A stretch of DNA of 64,000 bases from Phycisphaerae bacterium (GCA_050115495.1 JASFQK010000014.1:1-64000), one strand, 5' to 3'; numbered from the stretch's first letter, positions 39,001 through 48,000 are shown. Numbers: made by a program.

Positions 39001-42000
39001 AGAACCCGCCCGCTCGCCTCTTTGCCTCGTTACCTTGAGCGTAGTCGAAGGGGTTACCTCGTTACCTGCCCCACCTCTCCACCACCCAGTCCCACGCCAC
39101 CCACAACAACAGCCCGATCCCCCCGCACCAGTCCCGCAGCATGCTGACCGACGTCATCTCTGCTTCTCCGCTCCCTCCTCCCGAGTAAGCTCCGTCGCCT
39201 GCACCGCAATTCGCCGCGCCGCCGCCCGCCGTTCCTCCTCGCCGGCCTTCGCCTCGGCCTCGCGCTGCTCCCGGATCCGCTTCCCCTCGGCGATCGCCCG
39301 CAACTCCGCCTCCGCCGCAAGCTTGATCGCCACCCGGCGCCTGGCCTCCGCCTCCGGCGTCCACGGCAGCAACAGCGCCGCGATCAGCCCGATCGGCCCG
39401 AACAGCACACAGAGCCACGTGCAGGCCGGCCCGCGACCGGTCAGATTGTCCAGCCAGTTGCCGACAATCAACCATCCGACAATCCAGCCAACGCCCGCGA
39501 ACACGACCAACAGCACAATCGTCTGGATGTCCCGCGCCTCGCTTGCGATACACACGGCTCATCTCCCTGCCCCGGGTGCCATTGGTGGCTCGCCCACCAG
39601 TCCCCACCTCACATCCCAAACCGCGGCCGCGTCTGCACCTGCACGTATACGATCCTCCGCGCCTCCGCCGGCAGCATCAGCACCGACCCGCCCAGCATGC
39701 GCTTTTCCCGCGGCTGCAGTTGCTCGCCCCATAGATGATCCGTCGCCACCTCAAACTCGTGCTCGTCCAGCAACCGCACGTGCAGATCCGCGGTCACCAT
39801 TGCGTCCGTGACGTTGGTGACCTCCATCCGCCAGGAGACACGATAGACGTTGGGGTTGTCGTCCAATACGACGAACGTTGGATCGCTCCCCTCTACAAGA
39901 CTGCGCGACACCGTCATCGGCACGTGATCCGGGGCCGCCGATGGCTCATCCAACAACTGCGCCAACAACTCGAGCTCGTGCTGATACTCTCGCCCCTCTT
40001 CCACCCCGGCCGCATGCCCCACGTGCCAGCAGATGTACCCCGTCAGTGACAGCAGCGCTCCGATGACCAGAATCCACCGCCAGCGCCGCCACACCCAAAA
40101 TCGCAGGAAATCCACGTCCATCCGTCACCCCGTCGGCGCATAATGTGGCATCACCAGCGGTCGGCGGCTCTGCCACGGAGGGTCACATCATGCACGTGTA
40201 CCGCGCCCAGGCCCATCAGTCCATCCCCACTGCCGAGACGGTCCTCGAGCCCTGAGCGCAGTCGAGGGGGTTGTTTTTTCAACACAACGGCCCCCGTCGT
40301 CGGCGTCACCCTCCGGCCGGACGCTGCCTCTCTGGAGGGGTTCACCTTGACGGGGGCCGAGCGTGCTCCGCCCATCGCTATATCCTTGTCGGCGTTACGG
40401 CAGGCGAGCCCTACCTCGCCCTGAATCCTCGTGTGCGATGCCCAGAATCAGCGCCACCCCCACCGCCAGCATGGCCAGCAGCGTGTCTTCCTTGACGGCC
40501 AGACCCACCTCCGCCGCGTACGCCGTCACGACCGTCGCCACCGCCACCTGCACCTTCCGACTCGCCAGCGGCCACAGCCACCGACGCCAGCCCGTCACCT
40601 TCGGCTCCATCGCGTTCTCCCGTTTCAATCCTGCCGCACCGAAGTAGCCGCCTCTTCGGCGACGCACTTCCCCGCCTCGGCGGCGACGCCCTCACGCACC
40701 CGATCCACACGCCGCAGCACGTCCTTCAGCAGCAGGTCCACCACCGCCTGGTCGCTGGCCAGCTTCGCATCGACGCCAACTACGCGCAGCGCCCGCGCTC
40801 GCTCATGCTGCACCGTCCAGAACTCCAGCAGGTCCCGCTCGTTCCACGCCGCACTTAGCGCCGCCTGACCGGCCGCCCCTATCGGCGTACCGGCCTCGGC
40901 GAGCCGCGCGACCAGATCGCGGAACAGCAGCACGCGCAGCGCTTCCTGCTGCTGTTCGAAGACGGCCTGCGACACTTCGTCCGCCCGCTGCTGCGCCGCC
41001 ATGGCGATGCGCAACGACTCGCGCGTGCACCCGCCGGCCAGCCCGCCGAGCAGAACCAGAACCACCAGCAATCCGCCGGCACCGCACCTCGACCGCTCGC
41101 ATCGGTTCATCCCACACCTCCCACCAGGCTCAGCAACCGCACGGCGCACACCACACCGTCGCGCCACTTCTCCGCCGCCACCGCTTCCGCCAGCCGCTGG
41201 GCCGTATCCCGCACCTCTTCGTGCGCAAGCCACCCTCCGGCCGGCGTATCCCGCGGCAGCTCCGCCGTCGTGTAATCCCGTGTCGTCGGCGTCTGCGCCG
41301 CCTGCCACCGCTGCCCCTCAATGAGCAGCGCATCGATCACATGCCGCGCCGCCGTCACGAACGCCCGCGCCGTCCCCGCGTCCACATTCTTCACCAACGT
41401 CTCAAGATCCATCACCGCCATCCTCCGCCGAAAACGCCGCCCCTATGTCCCTTTGTTCCTTGACCCCTTTGCCCCTCCCACCTAGACCAGCTCCAGATTC
41501 TCCACCTGCCTCGACAACCGCCCAAACCACTCCATCTCCGTCTGCCGATGCGAGCGCAGCTCTTCACGCAGCGCGACCAGCGCCTCCGTGTTATGCCGAA
41601 TCACGTCCAGCAGGTGATCGTTCAGCTCCACCACCTGGCTCGCCCGGCTGACCGCTTCACGCAGCGTGGTGGCCCCGCGCATCCGTTCCTGTCGCTCGAT
41701 CCACCACATGACGAAGAGCAATCCCGCCACGCCCAGCGACGGCAAATGTGCCAGAACGTCGCTGAGCATCAGTCCACCAGCTCATACCAGACCGTGATCG
41801 TGTGCGCGCCGCTCGGCAGACCGAACGAATCCGTCAGCGCCAGCGCCTTGCCCCGGTCGGCGGACAGCCCGTAGCGCCGCCCGAACACGAGGTCGAGCGT
41901 GGTGTTCGCGGCCATCTGCATGTTCTTCAGCACGTCGCGCTCGTCGGGCCCGCTTGGGTCGCTGAGCAGCTTGAACGTCCCGCTCCCGCCCGTCGCCACG

Positions 42001-45000: not shown

Positions 45001-48000
45001 CGTTCGACGAACGTGTCCGCCTCCTGCGTCGCGAGCCGCCGCCGCAGACGCGTGATTTCGGCTTCGGCCTCGGCCAGCGCCGGCGACAAGTCGTCTGCCG
45101 GCTCTTCCGCGCTGTCGTCCTCGTCGTCGAGGACGCTCTCGTCCGCGCCGCGGGCCGAGGCCGCCAACGGCGGAACGGCGCGCATCGCCGGATCGTTCGT
45201 CAGCGCCACGGGGCCGAGAGCGGCGAGGTCGCTGTGCTCCTCGTCCGTCCAGAAGATGACCGGCGAGAAGTAGCGGTACTCACCGCTGCGGAGCAGTTCG
45301 GCGGCGCGCTCGGTCCAGGTGACATCGATGGCCCAGAGGCCGTCGTCGCGGACTTCGAGTCCGCCGATCCAGCCCGCCGCCGGCCGCAACCCGTCGGCCC
45401 GCGTGTTGAAGCGATCGAAGCTCTGGTGTTCGTAGTCGATGGCGAGCTTTCGCCCGATGGATTCGAGCCAGCACTGGGCCGACTCGGCGTGGCGGCGCGT
45501 AAAGGTGAAATCGCCGCCGGCGCTGGCCCGTTCGACCTGCACCTGGCCGAACGGGATCAGCAGGAATTCGCGCACCGGCTCGCCGCCGGCCGCGGCCAGA
45601 CGCGTACATGCCAACAGCGAGCACGGACCGGCGGGCTGCTCGTCACTACCGACTTCCTGCGCGACTTCGAGCGCCGCGGCGCGGTCGGCGAGATCCGCCA
45701 GCACTTCACGCACGCGGCCCAGTTGCCCGGCCACGTCCTCCTGCACCAGCCCGGCCGCTTCGCGCAAACGCGTCAGAAGCTGCTCCCGCGCCACGTGCAC
45801 CAGCGGACTTGCCGTCTGCGTCCTGTCCTCGTTCACGGTTTGCTCCACGGCTGAAACCTCACTTTCTACTCAGGCGGCCCCGCTCTGCCGGGCTTGCGAC
45901 CGCCCCGCCCGACCACCGGCGCCGTTTCCGTTCCCATTCCCGTTCACGCCCGGCGACAGGCGCAGCGTCTCCACGTTCCCCTTGCCGTTGACCTGTCCTG
46001 TGCTGATGAACCCGTTCGCCTGGTAGAACCCGCGCGGATCGCCGGAGGTGATGTCCACCTTGGCTCGCACTTCGGTCGCCCGGCTGATTTGCAGCAGCAT
46101 GCTGCCGATGTGCAGGCCGCGATACGCCGGATGAACCAGCAGATTCACGAGCCGATGCCCGCGGGTCGTCACCGCCGCCCCGACGAGCACGCCGTCGAGC
46201 TCGGCGACGTACACCTGGTGGTACGGCCCACCGACGATCTCCGCCAACTGACCACGGCGGAAGAAGTAATCCCGCCGCAGGAAGACGTCGTAGAAGAACT
46301 GGAGCGGGGAGACGTCGCTCGACTCCGCCCGGCGGAGCACCAATCGCGCCGGACCGTCCGTTTCGTGAGCGTGCTGCGGATCGTCATGATTCATGACTGA
46401 CGCCCCCCGTTCAGAACCGGCTCATCGCCGCGGGCTTCGGGGATGCCGAGCGCCCGGTGCACCCACTGCCGCGGCACGGCGAGGCCGAGATCGTTCACGG
46501 CCACCGCCAGCACATCCGCGAGCACCTTCGTGTCCACCGATTGCACCAGCGACCGCCGCAAGGTCGGCACTGCCACGCCCTCGCCGAAACGAGCCCGCAC
46601 CAACGGCGTGAGCAGATCACGGCGAATCGTGCGGCTCTCGGCAGCGATGTCGTTGACGAGCAGATCCTCGCGAACACGGTCGTGCACCTCGGCCGCCGCC
46701 CGCGAGCCCGATTGCCGTAGATCGGTAGTCAGGTGCTGGCCGAGCCAGAGGATGGTGACTTCGGTGTTACAGTATTCCTGAAGCGGTTCGTACGGCCGCT
46801 CGCCCTTGCTGCCGTCGACAAAGTGGAGTTCGACGTTCTTGGAGAACGCCGCCACGGCGTCGCTGCTGAGGGCGTCGAGCATCCGCAGCAGCTCCTGCTT
46901 GTCGGCCTCGGGCAGACCGGGCTCGAAGCGGGCGACGCGCAGGGGCATGCCGGCGATCTGCGAGAACGTCAGCCAGTCCTTAAAGCTCAGGTTCTGGGCG
47001 AGGAAGAGCACCGCCGACGCTCGCAGCAGACCGCCTTCGAAGTGACGGCCGGCGACGGGCTGCGGCTGGTGAACGATCCACTTGTTGGGCTGTTCGTCGA
47101 GGGCGACGCCGACGTCCGGTCGCTCGGCCGTGAGGACGCGCAGGCGCCAGGGCTCCTGCGGATCGCCGACGAGGCGGCCGTGCGGGACGGGCACGAGGTC
47201 GACGAGTTGGCCGGCCTCCCAGATGAGCTCGACCGCCGCGACGCCGGTCGCAATGGCGGACGCGAGGTGATCGAGGATTTCGGTGAAGTTGTCTAGTTGG
47301 GCGAGCGTCTCGCGGCAGAAGTCGGGGGCGCCGGTGGCGTCGGGTGACGCGTCCGCCGACGGCAGGATTTCCCAGTCGAGGCCGGTGAGGGCGAGTCGGC
47401 GGGTCTGCTCGACGGCGGCGAGGCGCGGCCACTTCTGCAGCATCTCGCGGAAGATCTCGAATTGGGCCTGGGGCCAGCCGGCGTCGGCGGCCTGGAGGCA
47501 GGCGACGAGGCGCTGGGGCGTGAGGCCGCGGGAGGGATACGTGTGCTGATTGTCGGCCCGCCAGGGACGGATCACGCGGCCGGGGCTGTCCGCCTCGCGG
47601 GGTCCGCGGGGCAGGAGCGAGCCGAGGGCCCGGAACAGGCCGGCGAGGACGTGCTGTGCGGGGTGTGCCACGGTCGTCTCTCCTGGTGGGCCAGTCGGCG
47701 GCGTGCCGCGGCCTCACACGAGAAAGGATAGCACGAGAAGATAGGAATGCTAGGATACCCGGTTGGTTTGTCGTGGGCTGGCGTGGATTGCGCTGTTCTG
47801 GCGGGGATTGGTTGGGGGGAAGGAGCAGAGGGGCAGAGGAACAAAGGAGCAAAGGGGACTGCGGTCGGGAGCGGGTTGGCGGAGGGGGCGGTTGTTGGCG
47901 ATCGACGGCCGACACGGAGGTCGGCCGCTACGTTGCGCGGCGAGCGTCGCTCGGTATTCGACGTCGGCCACGGGGGGCCGACGCTACGGGGTGTGGCATG

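What a model noticed while it worked through the whole genome (the two positions that open the first line are those of the whole stretch)
40395..47671. Order-wide, vertically inherited Mu-type capsid module that has lost its terminase in this family
C14:40395-47671 holds a tail-less, integrase-less phage Mu-type head module (portal g01890, GNAT acetyltransferase g01889, prohead protease g01888, decoration-like g01887, major head protein g01886, Gp36 head-tail adaptor g01885, then five small family-specific genes g01880-g01884) set among host genes. It is not a decaying prophage: the same single-copy module is kept in most genomes of the order UBA1845 and its capsid tree follows the taxonomy, i.e. 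a domesticated capsid inherited vertically. In the other families a T4-type large terminase sits beside the portal; in this genome and its family (Fen-1342) the terminase is gone and a GNAT gene stands in the module, so here the capsid is kept [...]
Evidence so far: Pfam/PHROG: Portal_Mu 3.5e-73, Mu-like_Pro 4.5e-29, Mu-like_gpT 1.5e-34, Gp36/head-tail adaptor; none of the 16 proteins g01875-g01891 hits a tail, lysis, integrase or transposase family. relatives.tsv: Mu-like_gpT in 225/278 genomes of the order against 17% of the class, 8.5% of the phylum, 2.3% of Bacteria. Six-frame search: MCP in 105/121 sampled genomes of the order, one copy in most; identity 82% (genus), 66-80% (family), 34-43% (other families). 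ML tree of 64 MCPs: the 10 family labels need 11 changes (minimum 9; shuffled mean 40.3; 0/200 shuffles as low). In 12 fetched loci protease, g01887 and MCP are found in 12, portal in 11, Gp36 in 10, always in the same order; flanking genes are [...]
(Added by a program. Inside this text positions count along the whole contig: contig position 1 is position 1 of the stretch shown here. "Call 12" and the like, gene names such as g00115 and contig names such as C1 are that model's own, and its searches are not shown. The text may have been shortened before it was handed on; [...] marks where a part breaks off. The agent that wrote the report below was given it as the finding of a first reader that could run no searches.)

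Follow-up and report, generated by a model that had tools for sequence, protein, structure and literature searches.

The report
Head-only phage capsid operon, host-fixed
A bacterial family keeps, in nearly every genome, one intact copy of a phage Mu-type capsid-building operon that has no DNA-packaging motor and no tail, which makes it an unusual candidate for a virus capsid put to the host's own use.

Summary
Window 40395-47671 (minus strand) holds portal, GNAT, prohead protease/scaffold, decoration-like protein, Mu gpT-type major capsid protein and Gp36 adaptor. Four or five small genes follow: a TM/coiled-coil protein, a helical protein, a lipoprotein and a two-TM holin-like protein. The flanks are ordinary host genes.

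The same single-copy module is in 30 of 32 sampled family genomes, in the same order in 10 of 10 loci, with dN/dS below 1. No module-type terminase is in G000 or in 28 of those 32.

- In the other families the module is about 13 genes (TerL to "T244"), not a tail-less head. This family lacks seven or more of them, not just the terminase.
- The gene histories disagree. The portal groups both module types. The capsid protein is 35-43% identical to the others, which are 61-83% alike, and an AU test rejects a common module clade. The protease is closest to a same-genus Mu-like prophage. The origin is mosaic, not simply vertical.
- G000 does carry a terminase and tail genes elsewhere, in a sporadic lambda-like prophage on C34.

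Portal and adaptor are as constrained as in terminase-bearing relatives. My best guess is that the capsids are completed in trans. The function is untested.

The parts
46391..47671 (-). Mu-type portal protein, 426 aa. It is the short form, without the MuF-like extension.
   Evidence: Pfam Portal_Mu 1.5e-72 and phrog_113 1.8e-73. It keeps all 56 invariant columns of an 11-portal alignment. Identity to 10 family loci is 58-68%. dN/dS is 0.16-0.34. Prophage copies in the order are about 790-809 aa.
45870..46394 (-). GNAT acetyltransferase, 174 aa. Its start overlaps the portal stop by 4 nt.
   Evidence: Pfam Acetyltransf_7 3.7e-11. It lies between portal and protease in 10 of 10 family loci. It is in 0 of 30 other-family loci and 0 of 20 second-copy or outgroup loci. 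No relative was found in IMG/VR. The core LVN.LVHPAYR.L.IG is invariant in 14 homologues.
44709..45848 (-). Prohead protease with a C-terminal scaffold-like coiled coil, 379 aa
   Evidence: Pfam Mu-like_Pro 3.3e-35 and phrog_328 1.6e-34. The motifs DYEHQ (H141) and YFSPV (S195) are invariant in 11 sequences. It is 51.5% identical to a second protease on C3.
43803..44543 (-). Decoration-like virion protein, 246 aa, with an extra C-terminal domain of about 115 aa
   Evidence: phrog_1731 9.4e-20 over residues 1-131. The C-terminal domain is shared only with two loci of family f6. In the G416 prophage the same family sits in the lambda gpD position, before the MCP.
43649..43669 (-). G+C-rich hairpin followed by TTTTT, between the decoration gene and the MCP gene
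   Evidence: Terminator-like match in the consensus scan: 7 found against 3.3 expected in the region. Function was not tested.
42686..43609 (-). Major capsid protein, Mu gpT family, 307 aa
   Evidence: Pfam Mu-like_gpT 5.8e-43 and phrog_371 2.9e-52. It is single-copy in G000. It is found in 134 of 151 order genomes. dN/dS is 0.10-0.34.
42130..42567 (-). Gp36-type head-tail adaptor, 145 aa
   Evidence: Pfam Phage_Mu_Gp36 6.5e-14 and phrog_195 1.4e-17. It is in 10 of 10 family loci. Its divergence relative to the MCP is 1.59, against 1.45 in TerL-bearing modules.
41769..42095 (-). s108, a small beta-rich ORF that is variably present and may not be a real gene
   Evidence: Found in 4 of 10 family loci. 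dN/dS is 0.74-1.16. No family hit.
41482..41769 (-). s95, with an N-terminal transmembrane helix and then a coiled coil (type II membrane protein, i-spanin-like layout)
   Evidence: Read directly from the sequence. Found in 7 of 10 family loci. dN/dS is 0.16-0.72. The only family hit is weak: phrog_32121 3e-4.
41107..41421 (-). s104, a helical protein of about 100 aa with a hydrophobic C-terminus
   Evidence: Found in 9 of 10 family loci. dN/dS is 0.18-0.56. No family hit.
40625..41110 (-). Lipoprotein, 161 aa. It has a signal peptide with the lipobox L-A-G-G-C. Its start overlaps the s104 stop by 4 nt.
   Evidence: The lipobox Cys is followed by T/S-x-E-S and is conserved in the family loci read. 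Found in 9 of 10 loci. dN/dS is 0.25-0.47. No family hit.
40395..40610 (-). s70, a 71-aa protein with two transmembrane helices and a charged C-terminus (holin-like)
   Evidence: Found in 9 of 10 loci at 60-74% identity. dN/dS is 0.08-0.32. A 74%-identical homologue lies in a MuA/MuB-bearing prophage (L091:17026-17250), followed there by another lipoprotein. That homologue gives Pfam Phage_holin_Dp1 at E 0.009, below the cut-off.

Best explanation
Shown. This is a 7.3-kb operon of 10 or 11 genes that is fixed in the chromosome of one bacterial family. The tools code the family as f1. Homologues are labelled Phycisphaerae or Planctomycetota MAGs. The operon encodes a complete Mu-type head-assembly set: portal, His/Ser prohead protease with scaffold, decoration protein, HK97-type major capsid protein and Gp36 adaptor. 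It also encodes a GNAT whose start overlaps the portal stop by 4 nt, and a membrane trio (helical s104, lipoprotein, two-TM holin-like s70), usually with a TM/coiled-coil protein. It has no terminase, no Gp37, no tail genes, no integrase and no transposase. It is single-copy, near-universal in the family and under purifying selection. Its ancestry is mosaic: the portal is shared with the larger TerL-bearing module of the sister families, while the capsid protein and protease are nearer to other phages.

Inferred mechanism. The operon still builds portal-bearing capsids that its own protease matures, its decoration protein coats and its adaptor caps. The portal and adaptor serve DNA entry and neck attachment, and they are as constrained here as in terminase-bearing relatives. 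The module has no motor or tail of its own. The capsids are therefore most likely completed in trans, with the terminase (and perhaps tails) of a co-resident or infecting phage. That would be a host-fixed, helper-dependent capsid, like the tail-less capsids of cf-PICIs or a gene transfer agent. The membrane/holin-like genes would release the particles. The GNAT would travel with or modify the particle, from the gene position that MuF-type portal partners occupy in Mu-like phages.
For: Identity of the genes.

Fixed and maintained in the family:
- MCP in 30 of 32 family genomes, one match in 29 of those 30.
- Same gene order in 10 of 10 loci.
- dN/dS 0.08-0.56 for all genes except s108.
- Same-genus rows cluster in the MCP tree (97*).
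- MCP identity correlates with RpoB identity (rho 0.44, p 0.019, n = 28).
- A true prophage type in the same family serves as contrast: it is sporadic and multi-copy, in 21 of 40 genomes with 0-7 matches.

Nothing else belongs to the module:
- Only h268 is shared in the 2.5 kb upstream, in 3 of 11 loci.
- The downstream neighbours are not shared.

No motor:
- The TerL profile gives no match in G000 or in 28 of 32 family genomes. These include G088 (6 contigs) and G005 (99% complete). The other families give 600-800 bits: f2 31 of 32, f7 32 of 32.
- tblastn with TerL and the T-genes finds nothing in G000.

Portal and adaptor still constrained:
- The portal/MCP divergence ratio is 1.26 here against 1.45 in TerL-bearing modules. 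For Gp36 it is 1.59 against 1.45.
- All family-invariant portal columns are kept.
- The protease His141 and Ser195 motifs are kept.

Release genes: s70 has a homologue in a Mu-like prophage next to a lipoprotein, with a weak holin hit.

Phages are at hand:
- A Mu-like remnant on C3 with MuA, MuB and a 51.5%-identical protease.
- A same-genus prophage protease at 59.7% identity.
- A lambda-like prophage with TerL and a tape-measure gene on C34.

Precedent: cf-PICIs release tail-less capsids that later take up phage tails (abstract of 10.1101/2025.02.11.637232).
Against: - No helper has been identified.
- Terminase-portal pairing is usually specific (recalled knowledge). The only terminase found in G000 belongs to a lambda-type head.
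- Module-type or related TerL is in only 4 of 32 family genomes, so a resident helper is usually not there.
- The element has no pac site, replication or excision genes that would let it profit from packaging.
- The holin reading rests on a below-threshold hit (E 0.009) on a homologue, not on the window's own protein. No endolysin was found.
- One family locus (G016) has the head genes but none of the small genes.
- G038, 99% complete, has no MCP match, so the module can be lost.
- No conserved promoter or operator word lies upstream of the portal.
- There are no expression or particle data.
- A portal can be needed merely to nucleate correct shell assembly (recalled knowledge), so its conservation does not prove DNA packaging.
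Confidence: 0.4

Rival explanations
1. There was one domestication at the root of the order, strictly vertical descent followed, and this family's module is the same module minus its terminase, with a GNAT added.
For: - The MCP is in 134 of 151 order genomes.
- Portal tree: the family clade (100*) is sister to the other modules (95*) with support 89. Seven prophage copies and 27 IMG/VR portals fall outside.
- Both module types have the short, MuF-less portal, while prophage copies are about 800 aa.
- In the larger MCP tree, all MCPs of the order lie on one side of a 97* branch.
- The shared genes are in the same order.
Against: - MCP identity is 35-43% to the other modules, which are 61-83% alike among nine families. 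RpoB shows no gap.
- Prophage copies, and one genome outside the order, are nearer to the other modules than this family's MCP is. The AU test rejects a module-only clade (delta lnL 166.7, p 8.6e-7; the group was named post hoc).
- IMG/VR phages (49-57%) and a lambda-like prophage (54%) are closer to this MCP than any sister-family module.
- The protease is 52-60% identical to same-genus prophage proteases and 27-39% identical to the other modules.
- Seven or more genes differ, not one.
- The flanks are not conserved across genera.
Confidence: 0.2
2. A protein nanocompartment on the way from virus capsid to encapsulin. The shell no longer takes up DNA. The GNAT is its cargo or modifies it. The portal is kept only to nucleate assembly.
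For: - There is no terminase and no tail.
- The enzyme gene is inserted in the operon and overlaps the portal gene by 4 nt. It is family-specific, with a conserved catalytic core and variable basic tails.
- The full assembly set is under purifying selection.
- The module is chromosomally fixed and single-copy.
Against: - Gp36, an adaptor that acts after packaging and offers the tail-docking face (recalled knowledge), is retained and is no less constrained than in TerL-bearing modules.
- The conserved membrane, lipoprotein and holin-like genes have no role in a cytoplasmic compartment.
Confidence: 0.18
3. An anti-phage device. Late-gene activation by an infecting Mu-like phage switches on the operon. 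Its capsid proteins then soak up or mis-assemble with the phage's parts, and its holin-like protein lyses the cell early.
For: - Mu-like phages are common in the order. Second copies carry MuA/MuB, and G024 has 10 TerL matches.
- The module protease is 52-60% identical to that of same-genus prophages, so mixed assemblies are conceivable.
- s70 is shared with a Mu-like prophage.
Against: - No PADLOC family matches any of the 15 proteins scanned.
- Interference would need one or two genes, not a coherent six-gene assembly set kept intact.
- No conserved upstream operator word was found.
- Nothing ties expression to infection.
Confidence: 0.12
4. An inert prophage remnant that simply has not decayed yet.
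For: - No function is shown.
- Two of 32 family genomes lack the MCP, one of them 99% complete.
- s108 looks unconstrained.
Against: - ORFs are intact in 10 of 10 loci, across genera whose RpoB domain is only 77-87% identical.
- dN/dS is well below 1 for ten genes.
- Catalytic and invariant residues are kept.
- The block of genes stays together although its surroundings differ.
Confidence: 0.05

Closest known systems
The larger module of the sister families of the same order (TerL-portal-protease-decoration-MCP-Gp36-Gp37-like-T681-T158-T276-T177-T244). My searches found no description of it in print.
   Same: - It has the same short Mu-type portal, which is sister to this family's in the portal tree (support 89).
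- The five shared head genes are in the same order.
- It is mostly single-copy and near-universal.
- It sits among host genes. The PTPS flank is kept in 6 of 7 f2 module loci.
   Different: - It has a T4-type TerL (Terminase_6N/6C), a Gp37-like gene and five or six further conserved genes of unknown family. It has no GNAT and none of the small membrane genes.
- Its MCP is only 35-43% identical.
- In family f6 it is split: TerL lies elsewhere in 5 of 6 loci.
Gene transfer agents (viriforms such as RcGTA)
   Same: Both are phage-derived structural genes kept by a host lineage. Both lack integrase and replication genes, sit among host genes and are inherited with the host. For GTAs I saw the abstract of PMC9662315 in a search listing only.
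   Different: GTAs encode their own large terminase and a tail (recalled knowledge). This module has neither. Packaging of host DNA is untested here.
Capsid-forming PICIs (cf-PICIs)
   Same: They make their own capsid from their own portal, protease, MCP and connector genes and release tail-less capsids (abstract of 10.1101/2025.02.11.637232).
   Different: cf-PICIs package their own DNA and are mobile islands (same abstract). That they carry their own terminase and integrase is recalled knowledge. Here there is no terminase, integrase or regulator. The element is near-universal and single-copy in a whole family, not a sporadic island.
Encapsulins
   Same: Both are HK97-fold shells used by the cell, with an enzyme gene beside the shell gene. 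The description of encapsulins is recalled knowledge.
   Different: Encapsulins have no portal, prohead protease, decoration protein or adaptor (recalled knowledge). All four are present and constrained here.
Mu-like transposable phages. The nearest named records are Faecalibacterium phage FP_Mushu (portal 35.7%) and Sinorhizobium phage phi3LM21 and Pseudomonas phage KT1 (MCP 43%).
   Same: The portal, protease, MCP and Gp36 belong to the same Pfam families and are in the same order.
   Different: The module has no MuA/MuB, terminase, MuF-type portal extension, Gp37 or tail. MuA and MuB do exist in G000, but on another contig, in a remnant element.

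Membership tests
Mu-type phage head module | Portal_Mu, Mu-like_Pro, Mu-like_gpT and Gp36 in this order | tested here: met
   Pfam E-values 1.5e-72, 3.3e-35, 5.8e-43 and 6.5e-14. The genes are co-linear on the minus strand.
Mu-like transposable prophage | MuA transposase and MuB next to the structural genes | tested here: not met
   None among the 21 ORFs of 35255-52099. MuA (phrog_310 8.5e-46) and MuB (phrog_296 2.4e-27) lie on contig C3.
Mu-like transposable prophage | Large terminase and tail genes in the element | tested here: not met
   The TerL profile has no match in G000. 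Nothing conserved lies upstream of the portal. No sheath or baseplate J family is in the genome.
Gene transfer agent (viriform) | Phage-derived structural cluster kept by a host lineage, without phage replication or integration genes | tested here: met
   Present in 30 of 32 family genomes, mostly single-copy. Same order in 10 of 10 loci. No integrase or transposase hits.
Gene transfer agent (viriform) | Own large terminase that packages host DNA | tested here: not met
   Pfam Terminase_6N, TerL_ATPase, Terminase_3 and GpA_ATPase give no hit in G000. The only TerL found belongs to a lambda-like prophage on C34.
Gene transfer agent (viriform) | Tail for delivery | tested here: not met
   No tail family in the module. 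The genes that follow Gp36 in sister families have no tblastn hit in G000.
Gene transfer agent (viriform) | Particles carry random host DNA | not testable with these tools
   This needs particle purification and sequencing.
Capsid-forming PICI | Own capsid genes (portal, protease, MCP, connector) | tested here: met
Capsid-forming PICI | Mobile island with integrase, regulators and its own packaging genes | tested here: not met
   No such families in or beside the module. The distribution is near-universal and single-copy rather than sporadic.
Encapsulin | Shell protein alone, without portal, protease or adaptor | tested here: not met
   Portal, protease, decoration protein and adaptor are present and constrained.
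Encapsulin | Cargo enzyme targeted into the shell | tested here: inconclusive
   The GNAT is adjacent and overlaps the portal gene by 4 nt.
Phage lysis cassette (holin, spanins) | Small two-TM holin, type II membrane coiled-coil protein, outer-membrane lipoprotein, endolysin | tested here: inconclusive
   The layouts of s70, s95 and the lipoprotein fit, read from the sequence. An s70 homologue in a Mu-like prophage gives Phage_holin_Dp1 at E 0.009, below the cut-off. No endolysin was found and there are no PHROG hits.
Known anti-phage defence systems | Match to a PADLOC model | tested here: not met
   0 of 15 proteins matched.

The most novel reading that the evidence does not exclude
A bacterial family has kept a portal-bearing, adaptor-capped phage capsid for its own use after discarding both the packaging motor and the tail. 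There are two versions. In one, it is a host-owned 'capsid donor' that is filled and armed by the terminase and tails of passing phages. That would be a chromosomally fixed, non-mobile counterpart of cf-PICI capsids. In the other, it is a living intermediate between a virus head and an encapsulin, carrying a GNAT enzyme. In parallel, the sister families' 13-gene TerL-to-T244 cluster would be a previously undescribed gene-transfer-agent-like viriform of Planctomycetota.
Probability: 0.25. Interest if true: 0.85.

Novelty: new variant of a known kind. Interest (0 to 1): 0.65.

Why it matters
Domesticated phage parts are known in three forms: whole particles (gene transfer agents), tails (tailocins and injection systems) and bare shells (encapsulins). 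A capsid operon that keeps portal, maturation protease, decoration protein and adaptor under selection, but has no motor and no tail, fits none of the three.

If it works in trans with phages, it shows a non-mobile, host-owned form of capsid piracy. If it is a compartment, it shows a step in how virus heads become organelles.

The sister families' larger cluster is a candidate new GTA-like system in a phylum where my searches found none described.

The case also carries a methodological lesson. A capsid tree that 'follows taxonomy' can hide gene-by-gene exchange with phages. Here the portal, MCP and protease give three different answers.

Tried and rejected
There are therefore no folds for T681, T276, the decoration protein's C-terminal domain or the small proteins, and no GNAT-portal test.
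- PDB profile searches with T681, T276, T158 and T244 gave nothing below E 0.01.
- A lenient PHROG scan of 26 T-gene or Gp37-like proteins and 5 small proteins returned only phrog_490 for the Gp37-like genes and one unknown family.
- ESM Atlas gave leads only. For T681, a 'tail protein' DUF5048 cluster ranked 23rd with few shared features. For the lipoprotein, the neighbours were hypothetical clusters, one of them mostly viral.
- PADLOC gave nothing. NCBIfam gave only two GNAT models far below their cut-offs.
- The GNAT and the lipoprotein show no similarity to the ATPase-GNAT fusion or the lipoprotein beside the s70 homologue in prophage L091.
- No 9-mer is shared by more than 4 of 11 family loci in the 450 nt upstream of the portal start.
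- The promoter scan found no sigma-70-like site upstream of the portal.
- Sequencing runs: no RNA holder is listed. There are two wetland DNA runs, one of which may be the source.
- Earlier-findings look-ups returned nothing.
- The AU test on the full 107-row MCP set did not finish in four calls. I repeated it on 40 rows.
- A greedy ORF clustering of the family flanks was noisy, because high G+C creates antisense ORFs. I replaced it with a six-frame comparison of the upstream 2.5 kb.
- A single-protein portal scan of IMG/VR found nothing. The alignment-based scan found 108 relatives, the best at 35% identity.
- Literature searches found no description of such a module in Planctomycetota or Phycisphaerae. 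PMC13626063 was checked by term search only and mentions neither capsids nor Planctomycetota.

Full report
**What is in the window.** The region 40395-47671 is one run of co-oriented minus-strand genes. Its G+C (0.67-0.71) and third-position G+C (0.80-0.90) match the surrounding host genes.

Pfam and PHROG identify six genes:
- a Mu-type portal (46391-47671)
- a GNAT acetyltransferase (45870-46394), whose start overlaps the portal stop by 4 nt
- a Mu-like prohead protease with a coiled-coil C-terminal half (44709-45848)
- a phrog_1731 'virion structural' protein in the position of a decoration protein (43803-44543)
- a Mu gpT-type major capsid protein (42686-43609)
- a Gp36 head-tail adaptor (42130-42567)

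The neighbours are a 958-aa double glycosyltransferase on one side and a zinc-ribbon membrane protein, a CDF transporter and FeoB on the other. No integrase, transposase, terminase or tail family matched any of the 21 ORFs scanned.

**The small genes.** I read the stretch after Gp36 in five family loci and re-drew the five small ORFs.
- s108 (41769-42095) is present in only 4 of 10 family loci. Its dN/dS is 0.74-1.16, so it may not be a real gene.
- s95 has an N-terminal membrane helix followed by a coiled coil. It is in 7 of 10 loci.
- s104 is helical.
- The next gene starts at an internal ATG and encodes a lipoprotein with a conserved lipobox cysteine (40625-41110).
- The last gene encodes a 71-aa protein with two membrane helices and a charged tail (40395-40610).

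The last three are in 9 of 10 loci, with dN/dS of 0.08-0.56. None matches a Pfam, PHROG, NCBIfam or PADLOC family.

Among 215 fetched loci outside the family, the only relative of any small gene is a 74%-identical copy of s70. It lies in a MuA/MuB-bearing prophage of another family (L091), directly followed by another lipoprotein. That copy gives a below-threshold hit to a phage holin family (E 0.009). I read the set as a possible release or envelope cassette of phage origin. This is a lead, not a finding.

**Conservation in the family.**
- The capsid protein is found in 134 of 151 sampled genomes of the order, including G000, and in 30 of 32 of the window's family. 29 of those 30 have one match.
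- In 10 of 10 family loci with enough flanking DNA, the order portal-GNAT-protease-decoration-MCP-Gp36 is kept.
- Nothing outside the block is conserved. The downstream neighbours of G000 have no counterpart in other loci. In the 2.5 kb upstream of the portal, only one host gene (h268) is shared, by 3 of 11 loci.
- Catalytic-type motifs are intact: DYEHQ and YFSPV in the protease and the acetyl-CoA-type core of the GNAT. That these are the catalytic residues is recalled from the HK97-type protease and GNAT literature. It was not tested.
- A real prophage type in the same family behaves differently. The lambda-like element on C34 occurs in 21 of 40 family genomes, with 0 to 7 matches.

**Terminase.**
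- A profile of five module terminases finds strong matches (about 600-800 bits) in 31 of 32, 32 of 32, 28 of 32 and 6 of 7 genomes of families f2, f7, f6 and f3.
- It finds nothing in G000 or in 28 of 32 genomes of the window's family.
- The four family genomes with matches have weaker ones (312 bits or less). One of them has ten.
- None of the 10 family loci has a TerL hit.
- Near-complete assemblies (G088 in 6 contigs, G005 at 99% completeness) are among those without a match, so assembly gaps do not explain the absence.

It is not true, however, that the genome has no terminase or tail genes. Four Pfam terminase families gave nothing in G000. A tape-measure search then led to C34. There a lambda-like prophage carries a 766-aa large terminase (phrog_38/15), a lambda-type portal, a protease-capsid fusion, a major tail protein and a 783-aa tape measure.

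**The sister families' module is not a bare head.** In 30 loci from nine other families, TerL precedes the portal and there is no GNAT. After Gp36 come a Gp37-like gene (Pfam 6.1e-8) and a conserved series that I call T681, T158, T276, T177 and T244, in some loci with a beta-helix protein.
- T276 was found in 14 of the 30 loci and T681 in 11. Several loci end at contig ends.
- T276 has a strongly conserved N-terminal 150 residues and a variable C-terminus. That is the layout of receptor-binding proteins (recalled knowledge).
- None of the T-genes matches PHROG, Pfam or PDB sequences, so 'tail' is an inference from position.
- None of these genes, nor TerL, has a tblastn hit anywhere in G000.
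- In f2 the module keeps a PTPS-type host gene as neighbour in 6 of 7 module loci, and some genomes have lost the T-genes.
- In f6 the TerL lies elsewhere in 5 of 6 loci.

The window's family therefore differs from the rest by the absence of at least seven genes and the presence of the GNAT and the membrane genes.

**Is it the same module, inherited vertically?** The genes disagree.
- *Portal.* In a 60-row tree, the family clade (100*) is sister to the other modules (95*) with support 89. Seven prophage copies from the order and 27 IMG/VR portals are excluded, and the family stem is long. Both module types have a short portal, while the prophage copies are about 800 aa.
- *Capsid protein.* The other nine families are 61-83% identical to each other but 35-43% identical to this family. 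A 517-aa RpoB domain falls smoothly from 77-87% within the family to 69-76% outside it. At least 40 cluster representatives, IMG/VR phages at 49-57% and a lambda-like prophage of a 40%-G+C planctomycete at 54% are all closer to this MCP than any sister-family module.
- *MCP trees.* The second copies that sit with MuA/MuB, or with their own TerL and long portal, branch closer to the other modules than this family does, as does one genome outside the order. Holding the two module types together costs 166.7 log-likelihood units (AU p 8.6e-7). I named the group after seeing the tree, which overstates the p-value. These are quick, not careful, searches.
- *Protease.* It is 51.5% and 59.7% identical to the proteases of a Mu-like remnant in G000 and of a prophage in the same genus. 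It is 27-39% identical to the other modules.

The simplest reading is a common portal-based ancestry of the two module types, with later exchange of capsid and protease genes with phages of the same hosts. Two separate captures from related phages cannot be excluded. Within the family, descent with the host is supported. Order-wide strict vertical descent is not.

**Mechanism.** The module encodes everything needed to assemble, mature, decorate and cap a Mu-type head, and nothing to fill or deliver it. Two results argue that the portal and adaptor are still used.
- Relative to the capsid protein, they diverge no faster here than in terminase-bearing modules (ratios 1.26 against 1.45 and 1.59 against 1.45).
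- All invariant portal columns are kept.

An adaptor is needed only after packaging (recalled knowledge). I therefore favour, at about 0.4, capsids that are completed in trans by a phage's terminase and perhaps its tails, and released with the help of the membrane genes. The tail-less capsids of cf-PICIs are the nearest precedent (abstract read).

Against this, no helper is identified, resident terminases are rare in the family, and the element has nothing to gain from being packaged. The rivals are a GNAT-carrying protein compartment, a phage decoy and an inert remnant. The last is nearly excluded.

**Limits.**
My tools give only codes. Homologues are labelled Phycisphaerae or Planctomycetota MAGs.
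- All genomes are samples of their groups, and many are incomplete.
- dS is near saturation and is depressed by codon bias, so the dN/dS values are rough.
- There are no structure, complex, expression or particle data.

Noticed in passing
G000 contig C3:179000-191600 (L003:3000-15600): A remnant Mu-like transposable element. It carries an HTH repressor and a Ner-like gene, MuA (858 aa, phrog_310 8.5e-46), MuB (phrog_296), several unknown ORFs and a Mu-like protease that is 51.5% identical to the module's. It has no portal, MCP or terminase. A paralogue of the window's h133 (39154-39555) lies beside its repressor.
   Followed up: partly
G000 contig C34:47133-66243 (L260): An apparently complete lambda-like siphovirus prophage. 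It has TerL (766 aa), a lambda-type portal, a protease-MCP fusion (678 aa), a major tail protein and a tape measure (783 aa). Next to it are a DNA methyltransferase, an Abi-alpha-like gene and a helicase. This prophage type occurs in 21 of 40 family genomes with 0-7 matches. Its TerL was missed by four Pfam terminase searches.
   Followed up: partly
window 49905-52099, minus strand: FeoB is read as two overlapping ORFs in different frames. The G-domain part is 51302-52099 and the membrane part is 49905-51419, with a 118-nt overlap. This could be a frameshift, an assembly error or a genuinely split gene.
   Followed up: no
loci L044-L078 (other families of the order), e.g. L044:2908-15514: A conserved cluster of about 13 genes (TerL to T244), found in most genomes of nine families. 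Five or six of the conserved genes have no known family. In f6 the cluster is split into two places, and in part of f2 it is reduced. It looks like an undescribed GTA-like or viriform cluster.
   Followed up: partly
L091:15299-17807 (G077:C120): In a MuA/MuB prophage, a 508-aa protein with an N-terminal P-loop ATPase and a weak C-terminal GNAT match (Acetyltransf_7 2.1e-4, below the cut-off) lies just upstream of the s70 homologue and a lipoprotein. It shows no similarity to the module's GNAT.
   Followed up: partly
L054/L055/L079 (G416:C25): A 40%-G+C planctomycete carries a lambda-like prophage with TerS, a GpA-type TerL, a lambda portal, a ClpP-type protease and a tape measure. Its decoration protein and MCP are 42% and 54% identical to the module's. 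The gpT-type capsid pair is thus combined with a non-Mu portal and protease.
   Followed up: partly
window 43649-43669, minus strand: A G+C-rich hairpin followed by TTTTT lies in the 193-nt gap between the decoration gene and the MCP gene. It could be an attenuator or an mRNA-stabilising element.
   Followed up: no
table, e.g. G017:C86:12417-13853, G034:C2:322946-324433: In several genomes of f6 and f9 the module TerL matches in two pieces within one longer open frame (527-773 aa). A short unmatched insert lies near profile position 285.
   Followed up: no
G024 (family f1, 4 contigs): Ten matches to the TerL profile in one genome, three of them near-identical in score (about 312 bits). This suggests a multi-copy transposable phage or element.
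   Followed up: no
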